64,000 bases of DNA, taken from IMG/VR virus record IMGVR_UViG_3300020429_000529, positions 390,762 through 454,761 of that record; one strand, 5' to 3'. This DNA is from a virus. Of the stretch, positions 15,700-64,000 are shown one piece after another. Every line of letters starts with the position of its first letter. Within the stretch, counting starts at the first letter, position 1. The notes under the pieces are model-generated. The model did not search any database. It saw nothing but the letters and a program-made list of their open reading frames with translations, and was not told the DNA's origin. A program made the translations under genes and the position numbers.

Positions 15700-16035
15700 A
15701 TGAGCAACGCGCAAGACCTGACTTCTGAAACCCTTCCCGCAGCTATTGCTTCTGGCGTGGCTCTGGTTGACTTCTGGGCTACATGGTGCCCTCCATGTAA
15801 GATGCTGAGTCCCATCGTCGATGCGGTCGCTGCTGAGTTCGATGGAAACGACGGCGTAACCATCGCTAAGGTTGATGCTGATGCAGAGGCATCGCTTGTC
15901 AGCCAATACAGTGTTTCGGCTCTGCCGACCATTCTGATCTTCAAGGATGGGCAGATCGTTGAGCGTTTTGTTGGCCTCAGAGACCAGCAGTCTCTTGTTG
16001 ATGCTGTGAATAAGGCGTTGGGAGAATCTGATTGA
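15700..16035 (+). CDS. thioredoxin
   Basis: WATWCPPCKMLSPI active site (CPPC variant) within a Trx-fold-length protein. Confidence 0.8.
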   Translation: MSNAQDLTSETLPAAIASGVALVDFWATWCPPCKMLSPIVDAVAAEFDGNDGVTIAKVDADAEASLVSQYSVSALPTILIFKDGQIVERFVGLRDQQSLVDAVNKALGESD

Positions 16036-17015
16036 GTACGCCAAAGAGAGCGCATCTTCTTGTTGGGATGCAAGGCTCTGGTAAAAGCACCGTTGCAAAG
16101 GTCTTTGAGGGCGGCGGCTGGAAGGTTCTCAACAGAGACTCTATTGGCGGACGGTTGCCCGACCTGATTCCGCATATGGTCAGGATCCTTAAATCTGGCG
16201 AGGGCGTTGTTCTTGATAACACCTTCGTCAACAGAGAGGCAAGAGCCCCGTTTATCAAGGCAGCGAAAGAAGCAGGAGCAGAGGTCGTTTGCTCTGTTAT
16301 GCAGGCAACGATCGAAGAATGCCAATGGGCTGTTTGCCGTCGCATGATGGAGAAGTACGGCAGACTGTTGATGCCCGAAGATTTCAAGAATCTCAAGAAA
16401 GACCCGAGCGTCTTTCCTCCGATTGTCCAATACACCTTCCGAAACAACTACGAAGAGCCCGCGATCGATGAGGGCTTTGACCATATTGACTCTTGGCCCT
16501 TCTCAAGAGAAGTGCCTTGGGATTTCGAAGGCAAGGCATTGATCCTTGATTACGATGGGACTCTTCGGGTTACTAAGTCAGGCGCGAAATGGCCGACAAA
16601 CCCGGATGATGTTGAGATCATGGAGAATCGAGCAGAGGTTCTTCGTCGTTATCAGGATGAAGGATACCTGCTTCTTGGCGCAAGCAATCAGAGCGGAGTC
16701 TCTAAAGACAACCCCTCTCTTGATGTTTGTCAGAAATGCTTCGATCGGACCAATGAGCTTCTCGGTCTTGATATCGAAGTCTCGTTCTGTCCTCATAGGG
16801 CTGGCGTTCCTCAGTGCTATTGCCGGAAGCCTATGCCTGGTATGGGCGTCGAGATGGTATTCAAGCACAAGCTTGACCCGAAGAAATGCATCATGGTTGG
16901 AGACGCAAAGACCGACAAAACTTTCGCGGATCGTAATGGATTTCAGTTCCAATACGCAGATAAGTTCTTTGCATCGTCGGCCACTGACAGAAGCGACAGG
17001 ACAGTAAGCGTATGA
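16032..17015 (+). CDS. polynucleotide kinase-phosphatase (T4 Pnk-like: N-terminal P-loop 5'-kinase plus C-terminal HAD 3'-phosphatase)
   Basis: LVGMQGSGKST Walker A, then ILDYDGTL (DxDGT HAD motif I) and the downstream MVGDAKTD HAD motif. Confidence 0.8.
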   Translation: MSTPKRAHLLVGMQGSGKSTVAKVFEGGGWKVLNRDSIGGRLPDLIPHMVRILKSGEGVVLDNTFVNREARAPFIKAAKEAGAEVVCSVMQATIEECQWAVCRRMMEKYGRLLMPEDFKNLKKDPSVFPPIVQYTFRNNYEEPAIDEGFDHIDSWPFSREVPWDFEGKALILDYDGTLRVTKSGAKWPTNPDDVEIMENRAEVLRRYQDEGYLLLGASNQSGVSKDNPSLDVCQKCFDRTNELLGLDIEVSFCPHRAGVPQCYCRKPMPGMGVEMVFKHKLDPKKCIMVGDAKTDKTFADRNGFQFQYADKFFASSATDRSDRTVSV

Positions 17016-26602: not shown

Positions 26603-26930
26603 TGACAACTTGCCGCCATTCACCATCAACTGCAACGATATTGGCGAAGGTACATCTCTTGCAGTAGTTTGGAATATGTACCTGCGTACTCTTGCCATAC
26701 TAAATCAGACAAGCTCTGTTGAAATACCACCAGGTGAAGACGTAGCAGAGTATCTTACAGAGAAGGCGAGAACGATCCTCATCAAGTCTGCGAATATCGT
26801 CAAGGGCAACAGGGATGAGAATGCTCCATTGGACGAAGATTACCTGTTCGAGCATGCTCTGAAGAACTGCAGTTACATGCTTGAAAACATGACCGGCGAT
26901 CCGTATGAACGACTTAGCGATCAAGGTTGA
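26595..26930 (+). CDS. hypothetical protein
   Basis: ORF. Confidence 0.45.
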   Translation: MDDDNLPPFTINCNDIGEGTSLAVVWNMYLRTLAILNQTSSVEIPPGEDVAEYLTEKARTILIKSANIVKGNRDENAPLDEDYLFEHALKNCSYMLENMTGDPYERLSDQG

Positions 26931-27990
26931 TGCAAAGCAACTTGTCAAAACAGTCATTGAGCGATTCAAGAGACTCAATCCTGAACTGACTCGCACTATG
27001 GTTGCCTTGTCAGGCGGCGCAGATTCCGTTGCGCTCCTTTATTGCCTGTCTCGGATCAAAGAGCTTGATCTTTGCGCCGTTCACATCATGTATGATATTC
27101 GTCCCGAAGAACAAGCGGGTCGAGATCGACAGGTCGCAATTGAAGCCGCAACCAAATGCGATGTTGACATTTTGACCAAGCGCGTCAAGATGCAAGAATG
27201 GATGCAGGACAAAGGCGAGAAGAACCTCGAAGCAGCCGCAAGGAATGCTCGGTACTACTGGCTTGAGAATCTGTTTGATCTTCGGCTTTCTTCTGCGCCA
27301 AACCAGAACTTCATTCGCTACGAACATTTCAACCGCAATGAGGGCTATATCGCTACGGCTCATCATGCCGACGATCAGCTTGAGACTGTCCTTATGTTCC
27401 TGGTGCGAGGTACTGGTCTTCGAGGGATGGCTGGTATTGCTCCTAAGCAACAAATCAGAGGCAACGGCAAGACGCTTGTTCGCCCCATGCTGGATCTCAC
27501 GCATGAAGAGACGAAAGCCATCTGCGAGTATGCTGAACTGGATTGGGCTGAAGACGAGACGAATAACGATACGGATCTGACTCGCAATAAGATCAGGCAC
27601 GAAATCGTTCCTCGCATGAGAGAGATCAACCCGAAGGTTGCGCAGCATTTTGTCAACTCTGCTGATATTGCCAGAAGCGCTCTCGAAACAGTCGAAGACG
27701 CTTGCGCTCATCGCATCCGCCCTGAATGGGGGTTCTGCACGCCTGGCGTTCGAGTCTCAACGAACACCGATTCGCTGAGACTCGTTGAAGATGTAGTCAT
27801 CTACGAATGGCTTGGGACAGCCGTCCGTAGCATCACCGGCGGACGAGGACTTGATCGGGTGACAAAGAGGATGCTCGATGAAGTAACCTCTGCCATCCGA
27901 GATCGAAAGTACCGCAAGTTTGATTGGCCCGGCGTTGAGGTTCATGTCGGTCAAGAACGGGTAACAATCCAGAGAGCAAGTCAGAAATGA
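26905..27990 (+). CDS. tilS: tRNA(Ile)-lysidine synthetase-like PP-loop ATPase (TilS family)
   Basis: VALSGGADSVAL (SGGxDS PP-loop) and ATAHHADDQLETVLM (TilS signature). Confidence 0.7.
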   Translation: MNDLAIKVDAKQLVKTVIERFKRLNPELTRTMVALSGGADSVALLYCLSRIKELDLCAVHIMYDIRPEEQAGRDRQVAIEAATKCDVDILTKRVKMQEWMQDKGEKNLEAAARNARYYWLENLFDLRLSSAPNQNFIRYEHFNRNEGYIATAHHADDQLETVLMFLVRGTGLRGMAGIAPKQQIRGNGKTLVRPMLDLTHEETKAICEYAELDWAEDETNNDTDLTRNKIRHEIVPRMREINPKVAQHFVNSADIARSALETVEDACAHRIRPEWGFCTPGVRVSTNTDSLRLVEDVVIYEWLGTAVRSITGGRGLDRVTKRMLDEVTSAIRDRKYRKFDWPGVEVHVGQERVTIQRASQK

Positions 27991-28403
27991 ACGAACCCGA
28001 TTGGACAAAGGACACTCTTACCAATGGCGAGACGCTTGGTCCTGCGATGGAGATCGAGACTGAGGATGAGGCTCGCCAGTATCTCGACAACTATGTCGAT
28101 TGGATGGTCGTCAAGCACGGCATGTCCCGAGTCGAGGCTCTGAATGTCGCCAAGCAGAACATCGGCTACTATTCAGGCTACTATGGCGTTGATACGCAAC
28201 GTCGGGTTGAACGAGTCTTCAAGTGCGTGCATCCAATCTTCGGTTCAACGAGCGGCGAACAAATGAGCGTTCAGGAGATTCTTGAGCAAGGTCGAAAGAT
28301 GGGCGAGGAATCCAAAAAGGGCAAGGGTCTAAAGATGCCCCATGGTCAGCCTACTGGCGTTCCAACCAGAATGTCGAGAGGCGATTTCGTTGAGTTTGAC
28401 TAA
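27987..28403 (+). CDS. hypothetical protein
   Basis: ORF with ATGA junction. Confidence 0.5.
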   Translation: MNEPDWTKDTLTNGETLGPAMEIETEDEARQYLDNYVDWMVVKHGMSRVEALNVAKQNIGYYSGYYGVDTQRRVERVFKCVHPIFGSTSGEQMSVQEILEQGRKMGEESKKGKGLKMPHGQPTGVPTRMSRGDFVEFD

Positions 28404-29278
28404 TGACACAGGTTCATTGGCTTGTAGAAGACGGTCCTTTCGAAGAGGACATCGGCCCTCTGCTTGAGGAGATCAAGCGGCAAGGTCATCCATTGAGAAC
28501 GGTCAAGTACGAACCGTTCGAGAGCGGCAACTATCGGGATCTGTATCCCGAGAACGCATGCGTTGTCTTCTACGGATCGATCAACCTTGCGCAGCAGTTG
28601 CAGCGACAGACGCCTTGGGTTCCTGGCCCTCTCGTAACCTTCGACCACTACAAGTGTTCAACATATTTCGCGCATTGGGGAAAGCATCTTCTCAACTCCG
28701 AGTACCTGATGATGCCCTATGCAGAAGTATGCCGACGAAGGCACGAGATTTGCCGTCGCTTCGGTCATCTTGAGCCCGAGAAATCTTCGCTGTTCATTCG
28801 TCCCGACGATGGACGCAAGACGTTCGGCGGGCACGTTGCGTATGAGCATGACTTCGAGCGAATTGGCGGACCTGTTGGTCAGTATGCCCGTCCTGAAACG
28901 ATGGTTGTTGTCTCGTCTCCGAAGAACCTCTACTACGAATGGCGTATCATCGTCTGCGATGGCAAGGCCATTTCTGGCTGTCAATACAAGTGGGCTGACA
29001 AGCTGACTCTTGATCCCAAAGTACCTGATGCTGTTTGGGAGAAGGCAAACGAGGTGGCCTCTTGCGGTTGGCATCCTGATCGGATGTACGTTCTTGACAT
29101 CGCTAACTGGGGGCCAGGAGCTTATGGCGGTCATGACGGGTACTATGGTCAGATGTTCTTGATCGAGGCCAACTCTTTTGCCTGTTCGGGTTTCTACTGC
29201 TGCGATCCAGAGCCTATCGTCCGAGAGGCCTCAAGGGTCGCCCTTGAAGAATGGCAAGATATCTACGCCCCGATCTAA
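28403..29278 (+). CDS. ATP-grasp-like protein
   Basis: FIRPDDGRKTFGGHV ... YEWRIIVCDGKAISGCQYKW resemble ATP-grasp B and C domain motifs; weak. Confidence 0.4.
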   Translation: MTQVHWLVEDGPFEEDIGPLLEEIKRQGHPLRTVKYEPFESGNYRDLYPENACVVFYGSINLAQQLQRQTPWVPGPLVTFDHYKCSTYFAHWGKHLLNSEYLMMPYAEVCRRRHEICRRFGHLEPEKSSLFIRPDDGRKTFGGHVAYEHDFERIGGPVGQYARPETMVVVSSPKNLYYEWRIIVCDGKAISGCQYKWADKLTLDPKVPDAVWEKANEVASCGWHPDRMYVLDIANWGPGAYGGHDGYYGQMFLIEANSFACSGFYCCDPEPIVREASRVALEEWQDIYAPI

Positions 29279-29320: not shown

Positions 29321-30589
29321 ATGGGCGATACGAAGACATCTCGAATGGCGGTTCTGGATCAGAAGACCACGGGCGGCGTTCCGGTCAAGATCTGGGCAAC
29401 AGAAACCGATCCTGACACAGGAAAGTCATACCCGTCTGTCGATCAGAACACGATCCTGCAAGCGTCCATGGCGGCTCGTCTGCCATTCGCTTTCCGTCAT
29501 GTTGCTCTCATGCCCGATGCGCATGCTGGTTACGGTCTGCCCGTAGGCGGCGTTTTCGCGGCAAAGGGAGCAATCCTCCCCTACTTCGTGGGAGTTGATA
29601 TCGGATGCGGCATGTGCGTCCTCAACACCGAAGTTCCGATCGATCAGATCGATGTTCCGAAGCTCATGGAAGATTGGGGCGCATCGATACCTGTGGGTCA
29701 GTCTTCTCGCTCAAACAGCGATCTCTGGTTGAGCGAAGAGCATGTCAAGCGAACGGCTGACAAGTTCGAGGAAGATCACGGTAAGGTCGAAGACAAGCAC
29801 AACATCAAGCTGCCTGACCTCGCAAGAGCAAGGGTTCAGTTGGGTACGCTCGGAGGCGGCAACCACTTTGTTGAGTTGCAGGTCGATCCGAACGGCATCG
29901 CCCATATCATGATCCATAGCGGATCGAGGGGTTTTGGTGCGCGCACCTGCGAGATGTTCCATGACATCGCCCGCCGTCTCTGCCTTAGCTGGCATGTCAA
30001 GCTTGAGAGCGACAAGTGCGCATTCCTTCCGGTTGAAACGGACGAGGGGCAGGCGTACATCGATGCGATGCGACTTGCGCTCGACTATGCGTTCCAGAAT
30101 CGCTCAACGATGATGCGATGCGCTCGTCATGCGCTTGAGCAGCAGGTCGGACGAGTCGCCCCGCTCAAGGGGACGATCAACATCCACCACAACTACGCCG
30201 ACCTGGAAAACCACTTCGGCGAGAATGTTTGGGTGCATCGAAAGGGAGCTACGCTCGCTCGTCAGCAGACGACTGGCATCATTCCTGGTTCGATGTGCGC
30301 CAAGAGCTACATCGTCAAGGGCAAGGGCTCGAAGGATTCGTTCATGTCATGCTCGCATGGCGCGGGACGTAACTTCAGCCGTAGCGAGGCGAAGCGACAG
30401 GTCGCTGAGGGCGAAGTTCCTACTCAGAAGGCTCAGTTGCAGAGCGCGGGCGTTTCGGTCCATGGTGCTTCCGAGGTTCATGACGAACTCGGGCACGCCT
30501 ACAAGGACATTTCTGTTGTCATGGCAAACCAGTCGGACCTCATTGATATCCATGAGGAACTGACTCCTGTTGCTGTTCTCAAGGGGTAA
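29321..30589 (+). CDS. rtcB: RtcB-family RNA ligase (3'-phosphate/5'-OH)
   Basis: MPDAHAGYGLPVGGV, GVDIGCGM, LGTLGGGNHFVELQ, SCSHGAGR are all RtcB signature blocks. Confidence 0.85.
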   Translation: MGDTKTSRMAVLDQKTTGGVPVKIWATETDPDTGKSYPSVDQNTILQASMAARLPFAFRHVALMPDAHAGYGLPVGGVFAAKGAILPYFVGVDIGCGMCVLNTEVPIDQIDVPKLMEDWGASIPVGQSSRSNSDLWLSEEHVKRTADKFEEDHGKVEDKHNIKLPDLARARVQLGTLGGGNHFVELQVDPNGIAHIMIHSGSRGFGARTCEMFHDIARRLCLSWHVKLESDKCAFLPVETDEGQAYIDAMRLALDYAFQNRSTMMRCARHALEQQVGRVAPLKGTINIHHNYADLENHFGENVWVHRKGATLARQQTTGIIPGSMCAKSYIVKGKGSKDSFMSCSHGAGRNFSRSEAKRQVAEGEVPTQKAQLQSAGVSVHGASEVHDELGHAYKDISVVMANQSDLIDIHEELTPVAVLKG

Positions 30590-58010: not shown

Positions 58011-58340
58011 GTGAGCCCTGAGTTCATGATGATCGCCCCCGTCATCTCCGTAGCCCTCCTTGCGCTCTCTGCCGCCTGCTACCTGGGTATCGATATCATC
58101 AACAAACAAATGGAACCAGCCCGCTTCAAGAAGCGATGGAACACCCATTACCCCTCGCTCTGCGCCATCCAGCAAGCCCACCGAATTTCGCGCACCAATG
58201 ATGACATCGATCTCTATGAAGAAACAGGTCTCCTCATAGAAAAGATCACCGGCAAAGATAACCTCACAGATCTCAATGTCCTGCTCATGAGACTCGTGGC
58301 AGATAAGAAAGCAGACAACCCATGTCCACAGAACTCATGA
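58011..58340 (+). CDS. TM protein, paralog set B member 1
   Basis: N-terminal TM then HYPSLCAI. Confidence 0.45.
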   Translation: MSPEFMMIAPVISVALLALSAACYLGIDIINKQMEPARFKKRWNTHYPSLCAIQQAHRISRTNDDIDLYEETGLLIEKITGKDNLTDLNVLLMRLVADKKADNPCPQNS

Positions 58341-58822: not shown

Positions 58823-59113
58823 ATGGACCCCGCCAATATACCCGACATCGGACTCTTCTCCCTCCTCTCGCTCTGCCTCGGAGTCGTCGCCCTCTTCGTC
58901 GCCAATAACATAGGTCAAGCACTACAACGCAAAGCCAACAGAGAACGCTACGGATACCCCTGCCTCGCAGCGCTCGAAGACCACATCGAATGGCTCGACC
59001 ACCAACTCCGAGATACCTACTGGAATGACCCACAACAAATCGAAGCCTACAAACAAGAACGTACCAGACTCCAAGAACGACTCGAAACAGAACAAGCAAG
59101 ACAAGGCAACTGA
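58823..59113 (+). CDS. TM protein, paralog set B member 2
   Basis: N-terminal TM then RERYGYPCLAAL. Confidence 0.45.
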   Translation: MDPANIPDIGLFSLLSLCLGVVALFVANNIGQALQRKANRERYGYPCLAALEDHIEWLDHQLRDTYWNDPQQIEAYKQERTRLQERLETEQARQGN

Positions 59114-59116
59114 TCC

Positions 59117-59416
59117 ATGTCCCTTCCTGCAATCTTTGGCATATCATTAGCCCTCATAACCGTCGCTGCGCTGTGCCTGGGATTGGGCTACGTCGTGAAT
59201 ATCTCCCTACGGGAGATAACATGCCGACAACGAACAGGCTACCCCAGCCTCGGAGCTATCGTCAGAGCTTACAGAAGTGTATGTTTTGATATTGATGTCT
59301 ACTACGGAGACTACGGAGACAAAAGGTTCATCAAGATGAGGAGCGAACGCAAACGACTCAGCGACCTGATAGATCAAGAAGAAGACCGACTCCGAAGAAC
59401 AAGGAAAGCAGCATGA
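59117..59416 (+). CDS. TM protein, paralog set B member 3
   Basis: N-terminal TM then RQRTGYPSLGAI. Confidence 0.45.
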   Translation: MSLPAIFGISLALITVAALCLGLGYVVNISLREITCRQRTGYPSLGAIVRAYRSVCFDIDVYYGDYGDKRFIKMRSERKRLSDLIDQEEDRLRRTRKAA

Positions 59417-59776: not shown

Positions 59777-60652
59777 CACTGAATCAGATACCCCAACCCC
59801 CTCTTCCACTGAATCGGGAAATGCTGCAAAAACACTGGTAAACCTTGTAGCAAATCGTCTGACACTGAATGGCAAAACGAAATCAGGTTTACCAAAACGA
59901 AAATCGATAACACTGAATGGAATGACAAATGTTGTAAGATGCTGGGAAAAGTTGGAGATTCATGGGAATCTCTCCCACTCTGCCCCACTCTGCAACACTG
60001 GTAAATGTTACGGGAAGATTTGATATGGCTCATAAGCTGGAAGACTTGCAGACAGGATTCCCTTTTCTCCATGAAGGTCAGACATGGATGAAGCTGACAG
60101 ACGGTCCTGCGACCTGTCGAGCGACTCCTATCAACGGAGAGGGGAAGGGAGTCATCCATGCTCTGCCTGCAAACGAGATGGTCGAGATGGGCATCGGTCT
60201 GGACGACCTCGAACATGCTATCGAGGAGACCTACCAGAAGTTGCTGGCTGAGGGGACTGAGGACAGCACGGTCAACGAAAAGCATACATCGTTGATGAGG
60301 TTGCTCTCGATCGGAGCGGTCATCGAGAGAGTCGTCAGCATGGCTCAGAGGATCTCGGAGAATACGGCCCATATGGGGACGGAAAGCAGGAAAGAGTAGA
60401 TACTCTGATACTGCTCGTGTGCCGCGACATCTCTGACCTGAACTGTCTCTCCGAAACCTGAAACAAAAACAACTCAGGTTTGCTTTTCACCTGCTGACCT
60501 GGAATCGGCGTCTTGTGGCACTGAATGCCGATAAGCTGGTAGGAGGCACTGAATGAGAGTACGAGGCGTATACATCCGAGGTCACAAGTATCTGCCCGAT
60601 TTGCAGGTAAACTTTCAACAGTTCGATGGCACTGAATCGCATGGCACTGAAT
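59777..60652 (+). repeat. 8 same-strand copies of the octamer CACTGAAT (plus 2 copies of ACACTGGTAAA)
   Basis: Copies start at 59777, 59807, 59853, 59910, 60519, 60547, 60630 and 60645. The last four are GGCACTGAAT; one overlaps the SD/ATG of the ATPase and two lie inside its 5' coding region. Confidence 0.7.
60025..60399 (+). CDS. hypothetical protein
   Basis: ORF inside the motif-rich region. Confidence 0.45.
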   Translation: MAHKLEDLQTGFPFLHEGQTWMKLTDGPATCRATPINGEGKGVIHALPANEMVEMGIGLDDLEHAIEETYQKLLAEGTEDSTVNEKHTSLMRLLSIGAVIERVVSMAQRISENTAHMGTESRKE

Positions 60653-61227
60653 GGGTCACATCGATCCTCGGTCCCAATGGCTCTGGCAAATCGATCATCA
60701 GCCAAGCCATTGCCTGCGCCTTCGCTGGCTCAGTACGAGAGGAGGGCGCTCCTTGCACTGTTTCGGCTGACCTGGTACGAGTAGACTTCGAAGTAGACAA
60801 CGCTGTCATCGCTGCCCAATCCTTCCGAGGGAGGTTCGACAGACATAGCGCCATCGCCGCTCGCTTCGACTCGAAAGGTAAGCATGGCGTTATGATGTAC
60901 GACCGCAATCGGCTGGCGATGGACGTACCAGGAAACTATACAGGCCTCAAGGTCATAGTGCCTATCCTTGCTGACATCCATCTCCGTTCCTTGGAGGACA
61001 GCGTTGTCGTCATCGACGACTTCGACCTGGGGTTGGATGCTTCATTGCGCGGGAAGTTTTTCAAGCACCTTCGGTCTCATCTCCGTCCTCGGCGCAACCA
61101 GTTGATTCTGACTGCGCGGGAAAAGATAGGTGAGATGTATGAGGTGGTGTTGCCTGAGGGACGGGATGTCATGGAGGACGCGATGCGGGAGGTCAGTCTG
61201 CTGGGTAAGAGGCCTGCATCTTCTTGA
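60553..61227 (+). CDS. compact ABC-type / SMC-like ATPase (AAA_21/AAA_23-like)
   Basis: Walker A ILGPNGSGKS near the N-terminus; Walker B / D-loop VVVIDDFDLGLD. AGGAGG RBS with a 6-nt spacer. Confidence 0.65.
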   Translation: MRVRGVYIRGHKYLPDLQVNFQQFDGTESHGTEWVTSILGPNGSGKSIISQAIACAFAGSVREEGAPCTVSADLVRVDFEVDNAVIAAQSFRGRFDRHSAIAARFDSKGKHGVMMYDRNRLAMDVPGNYTGLKVIVPILADIHLRSLEDSVVVIDDFDLGLDASLRGKFFKHLRSHLRPRRNQLILTAREKIGEMYEVVLPEGRDVMEDAMREVSLLGKRPASS

Positions 61228-61903
61228 TGTCATCGATGTAGGGGAGCTTGAACTCATCCTCATGACGGATGATCTTGAACGGCAATCCCCAGTTCAGTCT
61301 GAAGACGTTCTCCGCCAAGCGAGCGACTCGGTTCGAGCCGTCTTGGAACGGCTTTATGCAGCAGAGCCTCAGATTGATCTCGTAGGCCTTCTCGACGAGC
61401 GCTTCGATGTCGTCTTCGTTGAGGAGATGCGGCTGTTCTATCTTTTCCCGATTGGCATCATGGAAGTTTGCGATGTTGAGCAGGAGGTCGTAGAGGTGTT
61501 GTTTGATGGAGTAGGGGTTGGGCATCTCTGTTTCTGAGACCCAGTGTCTTGCTTCGCGCCAGCGTCCGACATCTGATGGATGTATGACGTTTTGGTCTCC
61601 CATCATGTAGCCTTGTTCGGCGACGGACTTAAGCAGGTTTTTGTGAAGTTTTTTGAGCCAGTCGAACTGGTCCATGGCTGTGTAGATTTTGACATCTGCA
61701 GCAGATGGGATCAGGTCTGGATCTGCTGCGAGCGATTTGACCAGGTTGAGGCATTTGAGTTGGCCTTCCACGTGCGGGTGGATTTTGGAACCTGACATTG
61801 TATCATCCAGGTCTTTTTTGAAGAGCGGGATTCTCTCGATTCGGGTCGAGTGGAAGGCAAAGGCAACTTGGTGGTCTCTTGATGGATTTGGGAACCTGCG
61901 CAT
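61193..61903 (-). CDS. Fic/Doc-family-like protein with degenerate motif
   Basis: CIKPFQDGSNRVARLAE against Fic HPFx(D/E)GNGRxxR. P, F, D, G, R, R are conserved but the catalytic His is Lys. Confidence 0.5.
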   Translation of the reverse strand: MRRFPNPSRDHQVAFAFHSTRIERIPLFKKDLDDTMSGSKIHPHVEGQLKCLNLVKSLAADPDLIPSAADVKIYTAMDQFDWLKKLHKNLLKSVAEQGYMMGDQNVIHPSDVGRWREARHWVSETEMPNPYSIKQHLYDLLLNIANFHDANREKIEQPHLLNEDDIEALVEKAYEINLRLCCIKPFQDGSNRVARLAENVFRLNWGLPFKIIRHEDEFKLPYIDDIKKMQASYPAD

Positions 61904-61932
61904 GGATTGTGTATCGGCAGGTAAGGGGTATC

Positions 61933-61997
61933 AAAGATAGGTGCAGAGTTCGGGTTGGTAGTCAAAGATAGGTGCGCGGGAAAATGAAGATAGGTGC
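61933..61997 (+). repeat. 3 direct repeats of AAGATAGGTGC at 25-30 bp spacing
   Basis: Copies at 61934-61944, 61965-61975 and 61987-61997. Confidence 0.6.
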
Positions 61998-62950
61998 AAT
62001 CTGGTAGTGCCTGACCGGAACCCCTTGCTGAGAGGAAGGGGACGTAGATGGCGGAGGGCGTCAGATGTCGGGATGTAGCCCTGGGGGAGAGGGCTCCTCG
62101 ACGAGGCAGACTCTTCTGAAGGGGTTGTTCCCCAGGGCGCAACCCTGACAGCCTGGCCGTAAGAAGACATCAGCCCGATGACGCCATCGAGATGCTGATG
62201 ACGTTGCTCAGGCGTCAGGATCCGGATGTCGCTGAGGGCTCGGGGTTGCACTGTTTTGCACTGTTCGCACGTGACGCATGTGCTTCAGAACGGCCTTCAG
62301 AGGCTCTGAAGACGGTTTTGGGGTCTCGTGCGGTTGAGTGTGCGCAGCGAGCCTGAGGCACTGTTTGCTCGTCGAGGTACATCGGGATCCTGAGGCGGAG
62401 GAGACGCTCCTCAAGGAGGCGGGCTGAAGGACCAAGGAGAGATGGCTCTTCGGGCTTCTTCAGGCTCCTCGGGCTGTATGTGCGGTCCTTCAGGCGACGT
62501 AAGTCGTTGGTCTTCAAGGACTTGTAGCACTGTTTGCTACTGAGAAGGCGGCCTTCAGATGCCGTACATGAACCGAATCGGGAGGTCTCTTGGTCGGGAG
62601 AATGGGACATCTCTTGGAGTATCCTGCTGGCCGACGCAGGCGATTAGGGTTTTGAGGGGTCTCAGGTTGGCTCAGGTTGGGCGCTGAAGAGTTTCGTAAG
62701 TCGTTGCTGCAGCGGGGTTTACGTCTTTCTGAGGAGCCAAGAAGAGAAAGGAGCGGGCTTCAGCCGGCTGGCCGCCGGCTCATCTCTGCTGAGATGGGTA
62801 AGATCTTGGCTCGCAAATGTGCCAGAAGAGGGCTTCTGGGGCGAATAACGGCAGTTGGCTGCTCGTTGCGGGTGATGTCTTTGGGGGCTACGATCACATC
62901 CAAGGACGGAGCGGAGGAGACATCTCCGCCGTCAAGAAGCGAGGACAGCT

Positions 62951-63643
62951 ATGACCAAGAAGACTACCGAGAAGGGCAAAGAGACGTATTTGGACCATGC
63001 TGCTGAGGCCTCAAGGCCGATTTCGCAGCGGAAGCCCGTCAGTCAGGGGAGGCAAGGCACGCTTCCTCCTCGGCGTCATCATCTCCTTCCGGATCAGCAG
63101 GATGAGCTACTGAAGCGGATGGCGGACGACGGGGGCTTCGTCAGCCCCTACAAGCGGTTCGGCGCTTACGACGGTCTCGTCATGGCTCTGGCTCGTCTGG
63201 GCGAGAATGAGAGCCACGCTCTTGGTCAAGTCTTGGGCGAGTTCGAGCGGTACATGTCTGACGAGGACTCGAAGGACGGTCGGGATCGGACGGCATGGGA
63301 CCGCTTCAGGGATAAGAAGAGTCGGAGCGAGAAGACGGGCCTCGACCACATGGGTCGTCTGAAGCAGAATGTGACGGTCCTTCAGCGGATGGGCGGCGAG
63401 CATCCTTACGCCTTGAAGTTGGCGCAGCTTGGTTGCTGCGTTGACATCATGAAGGGCGAGCGAGGGGAGTTCAGGGTTCGTCTTCGTACTGGGGTTCCTA
63501 TTGGGGACGACATCGTGCCGAAGAACGAGTTCCGCAGCAGGGATTGTCCGAGGTCTGTTATGGCCCTCCGCAGTCAGATGAGGTTTGCTGGTACGACTTC
63601 GCCGTCGAGGGGGCCGGTCAGTGACGGTTCGGGAAAAGACTAA
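62951..63643 (+). CDS. hypothetical protein
   Basis: ORF, higher GC. Confidence 0.45.
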   Translation: MTKKTTEKGKETYLDHAAEASRPISQRKPVSQGRQGTLPPRRHHLLPDQQDELLKRMADDGGFVSPYKRFGAYDGLVMALARLGENESHALGQVLGEFERYMSDEDSKDGRDRTAWDRFRDKKSRSEKTGLDHMGRLKQNVTVLQRMGGEHPYALKLAQLGCCVDIMKGERGEFRVRLRTGVPIGDDIVPKNEFRSRDCPRSVMALRSQMRFAGTTSPSRGPVSDGSGKD

Positions 63644-63775: not shown

Positions 63776-64000
63776 TGCCCCGTACCTCAACTCGACTGAG
63801 GGAAGAAACCCCCAATCTTCCCAACGACCACCTCATTCAGGACATGATCGCCAGTCTCGGCATGAACAATGACGAGATTCTCGCGATCCTCTATAGGCGA
63901 GAGCAGAACGTCGATTGCATCATCGACGGCGCTGTTCTGCATCCCGAGACCGGCAAGCCGATGAGCCGCGCCGATGCGCTGGAGTTGCTCGATCTTGACG
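63776..64000 (+). CDS. hypothetical protein, 3'-partial (runs off the window)
   Basis: MPRTSTRLREETPNLPNDHLIQDMIASLGMNNDEILAILYRR...; open to the window end. Confidence 0.45.

What the first reader, a model, noticed from the sequence alone, without database searches (positions are those of the whole stretch)
60553..61903. Compact ABC-type ATPase converging on and overlapping a degenerate Fic/Doc-like gene
A minimal (224-aa) ABC/SMC-like ATPase (Walker A ILGPNGSGKS, Walker B VVVIDDFDLGLD) is on the + strand. It overlaps 3'-to-3' by about 35 bp with a minus-strand Fic-fold protein whose motif is KPFQDGSNRVAR, with the catalytic His replaced by Lys. Small ABC ATPases paired with effector domains are the hallmark of abortive-infection, defence or toxin-antitoxin modules. 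A Fic domain with an altered catalytic motif could be an inhibitor or decoy, or use non-canonical chemistry. The pair sits at the edge of the gene-dense region next to a 1-kb non-coding stretch, a typical defence/anti-defence island position.
Basis: partly seen in the sequence, partly recalled or inferred. Interest (0 to 1): 0.65.

Follow-up and report, generated by a model that had tools for sequence, protein, structure and literature searches.

The report
Degenerate Fic and mini-ATPase gene pair
Two tail-to-tail genes of an uncultivated half-megabase marine phage encode a Fic-fold protein and a miniature ABC-type ATPase that have both lost key catalytic residues; they are inherited together across related phages, so they look like lineage-specific phage genes with their own control sites, not a mobile defence or toxin-antitoxin module.

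Summary
ORF 60553-61227 (+, 224 aa) is an ABC/SMC-head-type P-loop protein. ORF 61193-61903 (-, 236 aa) is a confident Fic fold with KPFQDGSNRVAR in place of HxFx(D/E)GNGRxxR. Their 3' ends overlap by 35 bp.

The defence/toxin-antitoxin-island reading is not supported. The window is from a roughly 0.5-Mb marine megaphage-like element. Ten of eleven related loci keep the same convergent pair inside a syntenic block, and it diverges in step with its neighbours. Its base composition matches the genome. The overlap is not conserved: 35, 32, 26 or 4 bp, or gaps of 44 to about 220 bp, once with an HNH gene inserted.

Both proteins are catalytically degenerate. The Fic-like protein has His->Lys and GNG->GSN. 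The ATPase keeps Walker A and the Walker B Asp but lacks the catalytic Glu, the signature Ser and, in most members, the H-loop His. Each gene has its own lineage-conserved tandem repeat array, and no terminator lies between them.

Most likely these are separately regulated ligand-binding or switch proteins of the phage. Joint action is unproven (about 35%). The pair is a new variant of known kinds and of moderate interest.

The parts
60553..61227 (+). Miniature ABC/SMC-head-type P-loop protein, 224 aa. Walker A is GPNGSGKS (residues 40-47) and Walker B is VVVIDD (150-155). Catalytic Glu->Asp, signature SxGE->YTGL, H-loop His->Arg189.
   Evidence: ORF. Pfam AAA_21 and AAA_23 above gathering. 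Family alignment. hhalign to canonical 350-aa AAA_21 relatives, probability 99.6%. AF2 pLDDT 78, with Foldseek top hits SMC head 1e69 and PtuA.
61193..61903 (-). Fic-fold protein, 236 aa. Class-II-like N-terminal S19-T-R-I-E23-R helix, a flap region (G113-R-W-R116 to M127-P-N-P130) and a degenerate motif K184-P-F-Q-D-G-S-N-R-V-A-R195.
   Evidence: ORF. Pfam Fic 32.6 bits. Family alignment A1 of 21 sequences. PDB profile match to FICD. AF2 pLDDT 92 and Foldseek FICD. Identical to the Tara Oceans protein P0025.
61193..61227 (.). 35-bp 3'-to-3' overlap of the two coding regions. It covers the unconserved, low-confidence C-terminal tail of the ATPase and the conserved C-terminus of Fic.
   Evidence: ATPase tail pLDDT about 43. 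In relatives the overlap is 32, 26 or 4 bp, or there is a gap of 44 to about 220 bp.
61934..61997 (-). R1 array: three direct copies of GCACCTATCTT(TGA) on the Fic-sense strand (+ strand AAGATAGGTGC at 61934, 61965 and 61987), 31-95 nt upstream of the Fic start.
   Evidence: The same motif lies in tandem upstream of Fic in L001, L005, L013 and L015, and lineage-specific tandem repeats lie there in L014, L016 and L066.
61912..61916 (-). CGATA box 8 nt upstream of the Fic ATG, with no Shine-Dalgarno sequence. Possibly a -10-like element of a leaderless transcript (inference).
   Evidence: A CGAT(A) box lies 8-15 nt upstream of the Fic start in all 12 loci (the trailing A is missing in L015). It precedes no other plausible gene start in the 64-kb window.
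60518..60763 (+). R2 repeats GCACTGAAT(G) at 60518, 60546, 60629 and 60644, and GCACTGTTT at 60755. The 60546 copy contains the ATPase start codon.
   Evidence: Clusters of 2-6 copies on the ATPase-sense strand lie upstream of the ATPase gene in L001, L005, L007, L011 and L015.
62248..62536 (+). R2 variant copies GCACTGTTT at 62248, 62358 and 62527 (plus GCACTGTTC at 62258), inside the 1-kb non-coding stretch upstream of the 230-aa gene.
62951..63643 (+). Conserved 230-aa protein of unknown fold, transcribed divergently from Fic. It is the syntenic neighbour in 10 relatives, including the more distant His-clade locus L020.
   Evidence: No Pfam, PHROG, PADLOC or PDB match.

Best explanation
These are two lineage-specific genes of an uncultivated marine megaphage clade. 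They are inherited together in a conserved block, next to a RadA/Sms-like ATPase and a GHKL ATPase.

Shown:
- The minus-strand gene encodes a class-II-type Fic fold. It keeps the inhibitory-helix Glu, the flap and most of the nucleotide pocket (P-F-x-D-G...R..R). It has Lys in place of the catalytic His and GSN in place of the GNG anion nest.
- The plus-strand gene encodes an AAA_21/SMC-head-type ABC domain. It has lost the roughly 130-residue middle insertion, the Walker B catalytic Glu (always Asp or Asn), the signature Ser and, in most members, the H-loop His.
- Each gene has its own conserved tandem repeat array upstream. The genes converge with no terminator between them.

Inferred:
- The Fic-like protein does not AMPylate by the canonical mechanism. 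It acts as a ligand- or target-binding module, or uses non-canonical chemistry.
- The mini-ATPase binds ATP but hydrolyses it slowly if at all, so it works as a nucleotide-dependent switch.
- The two genes are separately regulated units. Their convergent, overlapping transcription may interfere with each other.
- Their role is in the phage's own programme (host takeover, counter-defence or DNA transactions), not in a toxin-antitoxin or abortive-infection module.

Whether the two proteins act as a complex is open (about 35%).
For: Fold and motifs: Fic; ATPase.

Megaphage context: near-identical proteins lie on contigs of 498,618 and 502,461 bp and in Tara Oceans samples. The window also carries GroEL, RtcB, Pnkp, a TilS-like gene, PRPP synthetase, an R2K ATP-grasp gene and a Dam methylase. 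Relative L016 is an IMG/VR viral contig.

Conserved synteny of the pair: L001-L007, L009-L016.

Concerted divergence from the window: Fic 30-57%, ATPase 24-39%, upstream protein 41-54% identity.

Native composition.

Gene-specific conserved cis elements, with the rest of the intergenic DNA unconserved.

No terminator between the genes.

In about 75 full-length family representatives the 'His' position is K, H, Q, R, A, M, V, L and others. That position is therefore not needed for whatever the family does.
Against: No biochemical data exist. A Lys could in principle act as a base or a nucleophile, and it is nearly invariant in this clade (one Arg).

The rest of the pocket, including the metal-binding Asp, is conserved, which also fits a real enzyme.

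A Walker B Asp in place of Glu does not prove loss of hydrolysis.

In phages with conserved gene order, adjacency says little for or against a functional link. One relative (L066) lacks the ATPase nearby.

The leaderless-promoter and transcriptional-interference steps are inferred from sequence only.
Confidence: 0.5

Rival explanations
1. An ATP-gated effector system with non-canonical Fic chemistry. The mini-ATPase and the Fic-like protein form a complex. K184 serves as a general base or as a covalent nucleotidyl or phosphoryl acceptor, or the GSN change re-orients ATP as the NKR change does in Doc. The phage uses the complex to modify a host target.
For: The convergent adjacency is kept in 10 of 11 loci over 30-57% Fic identity. 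K184, D188, G189, S190, N191, R192 and R195 are invariant or nearly so in the clade. The flap and inhibitory-helix Glu are retained. The second Gly of GNG is replaced by a larger residue, as it is in Doc (known biochemistry, my own knowledge).
Against: Sister clades of the same full-length family carry Q, A, M, V or L at the His position. The ATPase has lost four of its catalytic motifs. The genes are not co-transcribed. An HNH gene and two small genes separate them in L009. L066 has no ATPase nearby. No interaction evidence could be obtained.
Confidence: 0.15
2. One reading: a defence, abortive-infection, superinfection-exclusion or toxin-antitoxin module carried by the phage. The ATPase acts as sensor or regulator and the Fic-like protein as effector or decoy.
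For: The ATPase resembles the heads of PtuA, AriA, AbiL and OLD-type defence ATPases. The Fic-like protein weakly matches the PADLOC candidate PDC-S04 and SoFic. The window is rich in conflict-type genes such as Pnkp, RtcB and Dam.
Against: The genes converge and so are not an operon. The pair is inherited vertically at a fixed syntenic position and has native composition. There is no nuclease or other known partner. Most PADLOC matches cover only the P-loop. The presumed toxin lacks its catalytic His, and the inhibitory helix is intramolecular, so no antitoxin is needed. The overlap and the 1-kb gap are not conserved.
Confidence: 0.1
3. Unrelated neighbours. The mini-ATPase belongs with the adjacent RadA/Sms-like and MutL-like GHKL ATPases as part of a DNA recombination, repair or replication cluster, possibly near an origin. 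The Fic-like gene is an independent, separately regulated insertion reading the other way.
For: The ATPase N-terminus is SMC/RecF/Rad50-like. Its neighbours are RadA/Sms-like and MutL-like. Strand-specific R2 arrays flank the locus, and GC skew changes sign at about 60.0 kb. The two genes carry different repeat arrays. L066 keeps the Fic and RadA-like genes but not the ATPase.
Against: There is no coiled coil, no nuclease partner and no canonical hydrolysis motifs, unlike Rad50, RecF or RecN. The origin idea cannot be tested on a 64-kb window. The Fic gene lies between the ATPase and the RadA-like gene in every locus.
Confidence: 0.2
4. Counter-defence decoys. The catalytically dead mini-ABC head poisons oligomeric host defence ATPases (PtuA, AriA, OLD or Gabija type). 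The dead Fic protein competes with host Fic toxins for their target or activator.
For: Both proteins are stripped-down, catalytically degenerate copies of folds used by host defence systems. They sit in a phage rich in counter-defence genes.
Against: This is purely analogical. Sequence identity to any defence protein is very low. The host and its defence content are unknown.
Confidence: 0.08

Closest known systems
Class II Fic proteins with an N-terminal inhibitory helix (human FICD/HYPE, Bacteroides BT_2513, Clostridioides CdFic; Pfam PF02661)
   Same: Overall fold (Foldseek E about 4e-6, TM 0.6). The N-terminal S/TxxxE helix aligns to TVAIEGN of FICD. The flap motif G-R-W-R matches G-R-F-R. 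The P-F-x-D-G...R..R core of the motif is shared.
   Different: The catalytic His is Lys and GNG is GSN. The residue after the inhibitory Glu is Arg, not Gly or Asn. There are no TPR or other accessory domains. Only 16-19% identity.
Doc (phage P1) and the Doc D2 clade with His->Gln (Khater & Mohanty 2015, PMC4454073)
   Same: These are Fido members with altered motifs. Doc replaces the second Gly of GNG (NKR). The D2 clade lacks the catalytic His (Qx[F/Y]x[D/E][G/V]NKR). The sister clade here reads QPFxx(A/G)NNR.
   Different: Doc is about 125 aa, has no flap or N-terminal helix, and is paired with the Phd antitoxin in an operon. Here the protein is about 236 aa with a flap and an intramolecular helix, has K and not Q, and has no antitoxin gene.
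SoFic and PADLOC candidate PDC-S04 (Fic-domain anti-phage proteins)
   Same: Fic-domain proteins linked to phage-host conflict, with weak profile matches (PDC-S04 4e-7, SoFic 2e-3).
   Different: SoFic is reported to act by AMPylation as an abortive-infection toxin (PMC12249575, abstract), which needs the canonical motif. This protein is phage-encoded, lacks the His and is conserved vertically.
AAA_21/AAA_15-type ABC ATPases of two-gene defence systems (PtuA of Septu and retrons, AriA of PARIS, OLD, AbiL) and SMC/Rad50 heads
   Same: The N-terminal beta-strand start MR(V/L)R..., Walker A and Walker B Asp, the (P/F)(E/D)xGL motif and the overall head fold.
   Different: One-third shorter, with no dimerisation insertion and no coiled coil. 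DE->D(D/N), SxGE->xxGx, and TH->(A/T/G)(R/K) in most members. No nuclease partner. Its neighbour is convergent, not co-directional.

Membership tests
Fic/Fido superfamily (PF02661) | Fic fold: helical core with a beta-hairpin flap | tested here: met
   Pfam Fic 32.6 bits against a 24-bit gathering score. AF2 pLDDT 92. Foldseek top 50 are all Fic proteins, FICD at E about 4e-6.
Fic/Fido superfamily (catalytically competent AMPylases) | Motif HxFx(D/E)GNGRxxR with the catalytic His | tested here: not met
   The motif is K184-P-F-Q-D-G-S-N-R-V-A-R195. K is nearly invariant in 21 clade members, with one R. Position-for-position alignment to FICD IHPFIDGNGRTSR.
Class II Fic (intramolecular N-terminal inhibitory helix) | (S/T)xxxE(G/N) motif N-terminal to the core | tested here: inconclusive
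   S19-T-R-I-E23-R24. Glu is nearly invariant, but G/N is replaced by Arg. It aligns to FICD TVAIEGN only in a low-scoring segment.
Doc toxin / Phd-Doc | Motif HxFx(D/N)(A/G)NKR, about 125 aa, upstream antitoxin in an operon | tested here: not met
   No His and no NKR. The protein is 236 aa with a flap. No small co-directional upstream gene.
ABC ATPase superfamily (AAA_21 / SMC-head type) | Walker A GxxGxGK(S/T) and Walker B hhhhD | tested here: met
   GPNGSGKS and VVVID are conserved in all 9 family members. Pfam AAA_21 35.7 bits against 27.
ABC ATPase superfamily (hydrolysis-competent) | Walker B catalytic Glu, signature LSGGQ/SxGE and H-loop His | tested here: not met
   hhalign to the canonical outgroup (probability 99.6%): DE->DD, SGGE->YTGL, TH->AR. 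Across the family the Glu position is always D or N. The H-loop position is R or K in seven of nine members, H in L015 and V in L014 by eye.
Two-gene ATPase-effector defence systems (Septu PtuAB, PARIS AriAB, AbiL, Gabija) | ATPase co-transcribed with a nuclease or effector partner, at variable island locations | tested here: not met
   The partner is convergent and not a nuclease. The position is fixed in a syntenic block. PADLOC hits are mostly confined to the P-loop (best stretch for AriA is residues 35-58).
PADLOC candidate PDC-S04 | Match to the PDC-S04 profiles, within a defence-island context | tested here: inconclusive
   Best model PDLC04836: E 4.1e-7, 27.4 bits, over residues 12-230. 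No curated cut-off is available. The context is a phage core block, not a host island.
Toxin-antitoxin module | Toxicity neutralised by the partner, with autoregulated co-expression | not testable with these tools
   This needs expression assays. The convergent arrangement argues against co-expression.

The most novel reading that the evidence does not exclude
The megaphage clade has turned two enzyme folds used in phage-host conflict (Fic and the ABC/SMC head) into a cooperating pair with new chemistry or a new switch logic. One possibility is a Lys-dependent Fic transferase, or a covalent Lys-nucleotide intermediate, gated by a non-hydrolysing ATP-binding mini-ABC dimer. Expression would be set by a convergent-transcription toggle between two operator arrays.
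Probability: 0.12. Interest if true: 0.7.

Novelty: new variant of a known kind. Interest (0 to 1): 0.4.

Why it matters
If the inferences hold, this is a clade-wide, selection-maintained Fic fold without the catalytic His. About 75 full-length representatives carry K, Q, H or other residues at that position. Such a family could show what Fic scaffolds do when they do not AMPylate.

It would also be the smallest ABC/SMC-type head seen here, with most hydrolysis motifs gone. That makes it a candidate pure ATP-binding switch.

The gene-specific operator arrays, which co-evolve across relatives, give a tractable handle on gene regulation in uncultivated megaphages.

It does not by itself open a long-standing question. 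The defence-module idea that made the finding attractive is not supported.

Tried and rejected
- DNA and protein searches of both genes and the flanks against INPHARED phages found nothing. GroEL matched only distant phages.
- IMG/VR scans gave one relative for the K clade (L016) and none for the Q and H clades. A family-wide alignment was too divergent to scan with.
- The metagenome scan with the H-clade alignment gave one true full-length relative (L020). The rest were motif-only hits to canonical Fic proteins.
- The GTDB genome scan gave one hit in a MAG binned as Saccharibacteria. At 36.7% GC and with the RadA-like neighbour it is probably a mis-binned phage contig.
- Contig look-ups for H- and Q-clade members returned contigs too short for context. 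The P0033 context came without DNA.
- Rfam gave only a sub-threshold chance hit, Ascomycota telomerase RNA at 19 bits against a 30-bit threshold.
- The 230-aa neighbour has no Pfam, PHROG, PADLOC, NCBIfam or PDB match.
- Six-frame comparison of the 1-kb non-coding stretch with the intergenic regions of relatives found no conserved ORF.
- The sigma-70 scan proposes TTGATA-17-CACAAT just upstream of the Fic ATG. That would start transcription inside the conserved N-terminus, so I do not rely on it.
- A ParA-type partition reading of the repeat arrays was rejected. The P-loop is classical and SMC-like, not the deviant KGGxxK type.
- A sigma-54 reading of TGGCAC in R2 was rejected. There is no properly spaced TTGC element.
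Full report
**1. The observation**

- The first is 60553..61227 on the + strand, 224 aa. It starts at an ATG preceded by AGGAGG.
- The second is 61193..61903 on the - strand, 236 aa.
- Their 3' ends share 35 bp, 61193-61227.

The plus-strand protein passes Pfam gathering scores for AAA_21 and AAA_23, and its N-terminus matches SMC_N. The minus-strand protein passes the gathering score for Fic.

AlphaFold2 with a 21-sequence alignment gives the Fic-like protein pLDDT 92 and pTM 0.90. Every top Foldseek hit in the PDB is a Fic protein, led by human FICD (E about 4e-6, TM about 0.6).

The ATPase model has pLDDT 78 and is a compact ABC head. It is closest to the Thermotoga SMC head and to PtuA of Septu and retron systems.

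- The Fic fold is recognised.
- The ATPase is not a frameshifted fragment. Nine relatives are 196-234 aa with the same architecture.

**2. Where the window comes from**

Proteins 98-99% identical to these two lie on metagenomic contigs of 498,618 and 502,461 bp and in Tara Oceans samples. The Fic protein is identical to Tara protein P0025.

The window has no tRNA genes. It is mostly transcribed on one strand. It carries these genes:
- GroEL
- RtcB
- a polynucleotide kinase-phosphatase
- a TilS-like PP-loop protein
- PRPP synthetase
- an R2K ATP-grasp protein
- a Dam methylase
- a glycosyltransferase

This repertoire resembles the conflict and auxiliary genes reviewed for jumbo phages (PMC7824862).

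A related 100-kb contig is in IMG/VR. Nothing similar is in the INPHARED phage collection. I therefore treat the source as an uncultivated marine megaphage-like element.

**3. The pair in relatives**

The Fic-like protein has 22 close homologues among 5.8 billion clustered proteins. Every related locus with enough flank shows the same block:
- a GHKL ATPase with a MutL-like N-terminus,
- one or two unknown genes,
- a RadA/Sms-like RecA-fold ATPase,
- a protein of about 230 aa,
- then, transcribed divergently, the Fic-like gene,
- then, converging on it, the mini-ATPase.

That makes ten loci, counting the window.

Identities to the window run 30-57% for Fic, 24-39% for the ATPase and 41-54% for the 230-aa protein. 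The three fall together, which is the pattern of vertical descent.

GC (0.515-0.547) and GC3 (0.61-0.66) match the genome (0.526 overall; RtcB GC3 0.65).

The 3' overlap is not conserved.
- It is 35, 32, 26 or 4 bp in four lineages.
- In the others there is a gap of 44 to about 220 bp.
- In L009/L010 an HNH gene and two small genes sit between the pair.

In one distant, low-GC relative (L066) the Fic and RadA-like genes are present, but no ATPase lies within the 3.4 kb available downstream.

The His-clade relative L020 keeps the divergent 230-aa neighbour. Its contig ends 350 bp after Fic.

**4. What the Fic-like protein retains and lacks**

Against FICD, LVYIHPFIDGNGRTSRLL aligns with LCCIKPFQDGSNRVARLA. 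So His->Lys184, Asn->Ser190 and Gly->Asn191. Pro, Phe, Asp, the first Gly and both Arg are kept.

In the 21-member clade:
- P185, F186, G189, S190 and R195 are invariant.
- K184, D188, N191 and R192 are nearly so. P0008 has Arg at position 184.

An N-terminal S19-T-R-I-E23-R24 segment corresponds to the class II inhibitory motif (S/T)xxxE(G/N). A G113-R-W-R116 to M127-P-x-P130 segment corresponds to the FICD flap region.

A full-library profile search found 363 representatives. About 75 of them are full-length proteins of about 240 aa. Aligned, the 'His' column holds different residues in different clades:
- K in this clade,
- H in a clade with HP(F/W)xDGTGR,
- Q in a large clade with VQPFxx(A/G)NNR,
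- R, A, M, V, L, S, W, D or C elsewhere.

Beyond that family, nearly all hits carry canonical HPFxDGNGR.

Loss of the His in Fido proteins has a precedent in the Doc D2 clade, which has Gln (PMC4454073).

From established Fic biochemistry (my own knowledge):
- The His deprotonates the target hydroxyl.
- The GNG loop is the anion nest for the alpha and beta phosphates.
- In Doc, replacing the second Gly re-orients ATP.

I infer that canonical AMPylation is very unlikely here. The conserved pocket and flap argue for continued binding of a ligand or target.

**5. What the mini-ATPase retains and lacks**

Profile-profile alignment to its nearest canonical relatives gives probability 99.6% over the C-terminal half. 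Those relatives are 350-aa AAA_21/AAA_15 proteins. The alignment maps:
- SGGE to Y-T-G-L,
- IDE(P)ELHLHP to IDDFDLGLDA,
- QFI(V)(A)THS to QLILTARE.

Across nine family members:
- Walker A and the Walker B Asp are constant.
- The catalytic-Glu position is always Asp or Asn.
- The signature Ser is absent.
- The H-loop position is Arg or Lys in seven members, His in L015 and, by eye, Val in L014.

The roughly 130-residue insertion between the two lobes of the canonical relatives is missing. I infer an ATP-binding domain with little or no turnover. This is not shown.

**6. Regulation**

This was not part of the original finding. The intergenic DNA of relatives is otherwise unalignable, yet three elements recur.

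- **R1, CACCTATCTTTGA on the Fic-sense strand.**
  - It lies in tandem upstream of the Fic start. The window has three copies (31-95 nt upstream) and L013 has four (29-146 nt upstream).
  - L001, L005 and L015 have two copies each, allowing one mismatch.
  - Spacing is mostly 19-22 or 31 bp.
  - L066, L016 and L014 carry different tandem repeats at the same place.
- **A CGATA box.**
  - A CGAT(A) box lies 8-15 nt before the Fic start in all 12 loci, and there is no Shine-Dalgarno sequence. L015 lacks the trailing A.
  - In the window this arrangement precedes no other plausible gene start.
- **R2, GCACTG(AAT/TTT), always on the ATPase-sense strand.**
  - In the 64-kb window it occurs only between 59.7 and 62.6 kb. 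For GCACTGWWTG that is 5 matches against 0.5 expected.
  - One copy supplies the ATPase start codon in the window and in L001.
  - Clusters of 2-6 copies lie upstream of the ATPase in L001, L005, L007, L011 and L015.

No terminator-like site lies between the two genes. I infer two separately controlled, converging transcription units that can interfere with each other. The proteins that bind R1 and R2 are unknown.

**7. Interpretation**

The defence, abortive-infection or toxin-antitoxin reading rests on resemblance alone.
- The PADLOC matches of the ATPase are spread over 53 families, and most cover only the P-loop.
- The Fic match to candidate PDC-S04 is 27 bits.
- The neighbours have no PADLOC match beyond a weak mad8 hit.
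- The convergent orientation, fixed syntenic position, concerted divergence and native composition all argue against a mobile defence island.

I favour lineage-specific phage genes with degenerate active sites. They would act as ligand-binding or switch proteins in the phage's own programme.

Joint action of the two proteins is possible, at about 35%. Conserved gene order in related phages cannot establish it, and L009 and L066 show that the junction is dispensable.

The rivals are:
- a non-canonical active Fic gated by the ATPase,
- a true defence or exclusion module,
- independent neighbours, with the ATPase tied to the RadA/GHKL DNA-transaction genes or an origin,
- counter-defence decoys.

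**8. Novelty and score**

Both folds are known, and degenerate Fido motifs are known. These things appear undescribed in the libraries and papers I could search:
- the clade-wide His->Lys/GSN Fic variant,
- the stripped mini-ABC head,
- their conserved convergent arrangement, each with a dedicated operator array, in a megaphage lineage.

I rate it a new variant of a known kind, with interest 0.4.

Noticed in passing
window 61934-61997 (and L001 7915-7947, L005 about 5918-5947, L013 5855-5972, L015 5956-5988): A tandem direct repeat, CACCTATCTTTGA, lies on the Fic-sense strand upstream of the Fic start. It is conserved across relatives whose intergenic DNA is otherwise unalignable. Distant relatives carry different tandem repeats at the same place (L066 CACCCATTTT x3; L016 and L014 ...CATAACCATT x2). 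It looks like a co-evolving operator array.
   Followed up: yes
window 61912-61916 (- strand) and the equivalent site in L001-L020 and L066: A CGAT(A) box lies 8-15 nt upstream of the Fic ATG in all 12 loci examined (L015 lacks the trailing A), with no Shine-Dalgarno sequence. The convergent ATPase gene has a strong AGGAGG. It may be the -10-like element of a leaderless mRNA.
   Followed up: partly
window 59725, 60518, 60546, 60629, 60644, 60755, 62248, 62358, 62527 (+ strand); L005 7367-8046; L011 7490-7988; L007 7515-8114: The strand-specific 9-10-mer GCACTG(AAT/TTT) occurs only around this locus in the 64-kb window. It clusters upstream of the mini-ATPase gene in several relatives. In the window and L001 one copy contains the ATPase start codon. 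Its function is unknown (operator, phage promoter or iteron).
   Followed up: partly
window about 59,900-60,100: GC skew switches sharply from about -0.2 (55.5-60 kb) to +0.1 to +0.3 (60-64 kb) without a change of coding strand. AT skew changes sign too. This could mark an origin or terminus next to the RadA-like gene. It cannot be tested on 64 kb.
   Followed up: no
window 58011-58340, 58823-59113, 59117-59416 (+): Three tandem paralogous small genes encode proteins with an N-terminal transmembrane helix followed by a shared (G/H)YP(S/C)L(G/C/A)A(I/L) motif. They sit in a tightly packed run of small + strand ORFs from 56.7 to 60.4 kb.
   Followed up: no
window 16032-17015, 26905-27990, 28403-29278, 29321-30589: An RNA-repair and tRNA-related set: polynucleotide kinase-phosphatase (AAA_33 + PNK3P), a TilS-like PP-loop ATPase, an R2K ATP-grasp protein and the RtcB ligase. 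This fits counter-measures against host anticodon nucleases.
   Followed up: no
L009 7127-8055 / L010: In one lineage an HNH endonuclease gene and two small ORFs are inserted between the Fic-like gene and the mini-ATPase. The tail-to-tail junction therefore tolerates disruption.
   Followed up: partly
L066 (CAZKPY010000002.1, a MAG labelled Candidatus Saccharibacteria): A 21-kb, 36.7% GC contig carries a K-motif Fic relative next to the RadA-like gene. It has neither the 230-aa gene nor the mini-ATPase nearby. It is probably a phage contig binned into a bacterial MAG.
   Followed up: partly
window 61799-61903: Public gene calls for near-identical copies (P0001, P0026) start the Fic gene 35 codons late, giving 201 aa. 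Another relative's call (P0030) over-extends to 354 aa. The N-terminus MRxFPxPS...HSTRIERIP is conserved across the family, which shows that the 236-aa start is correct.
   Followed up: yes
window 62951-63643 and 63776-64000: The conserved 230-aa divergent neighbour of Fic has no detectable homology to any profile or solved structure. It is kept even next to a His-clade Fic (L020). From about 63776 an ORF in the position of the relatives' RadA/Sms-like gene runs off the end of the window.
   Followed up: partly
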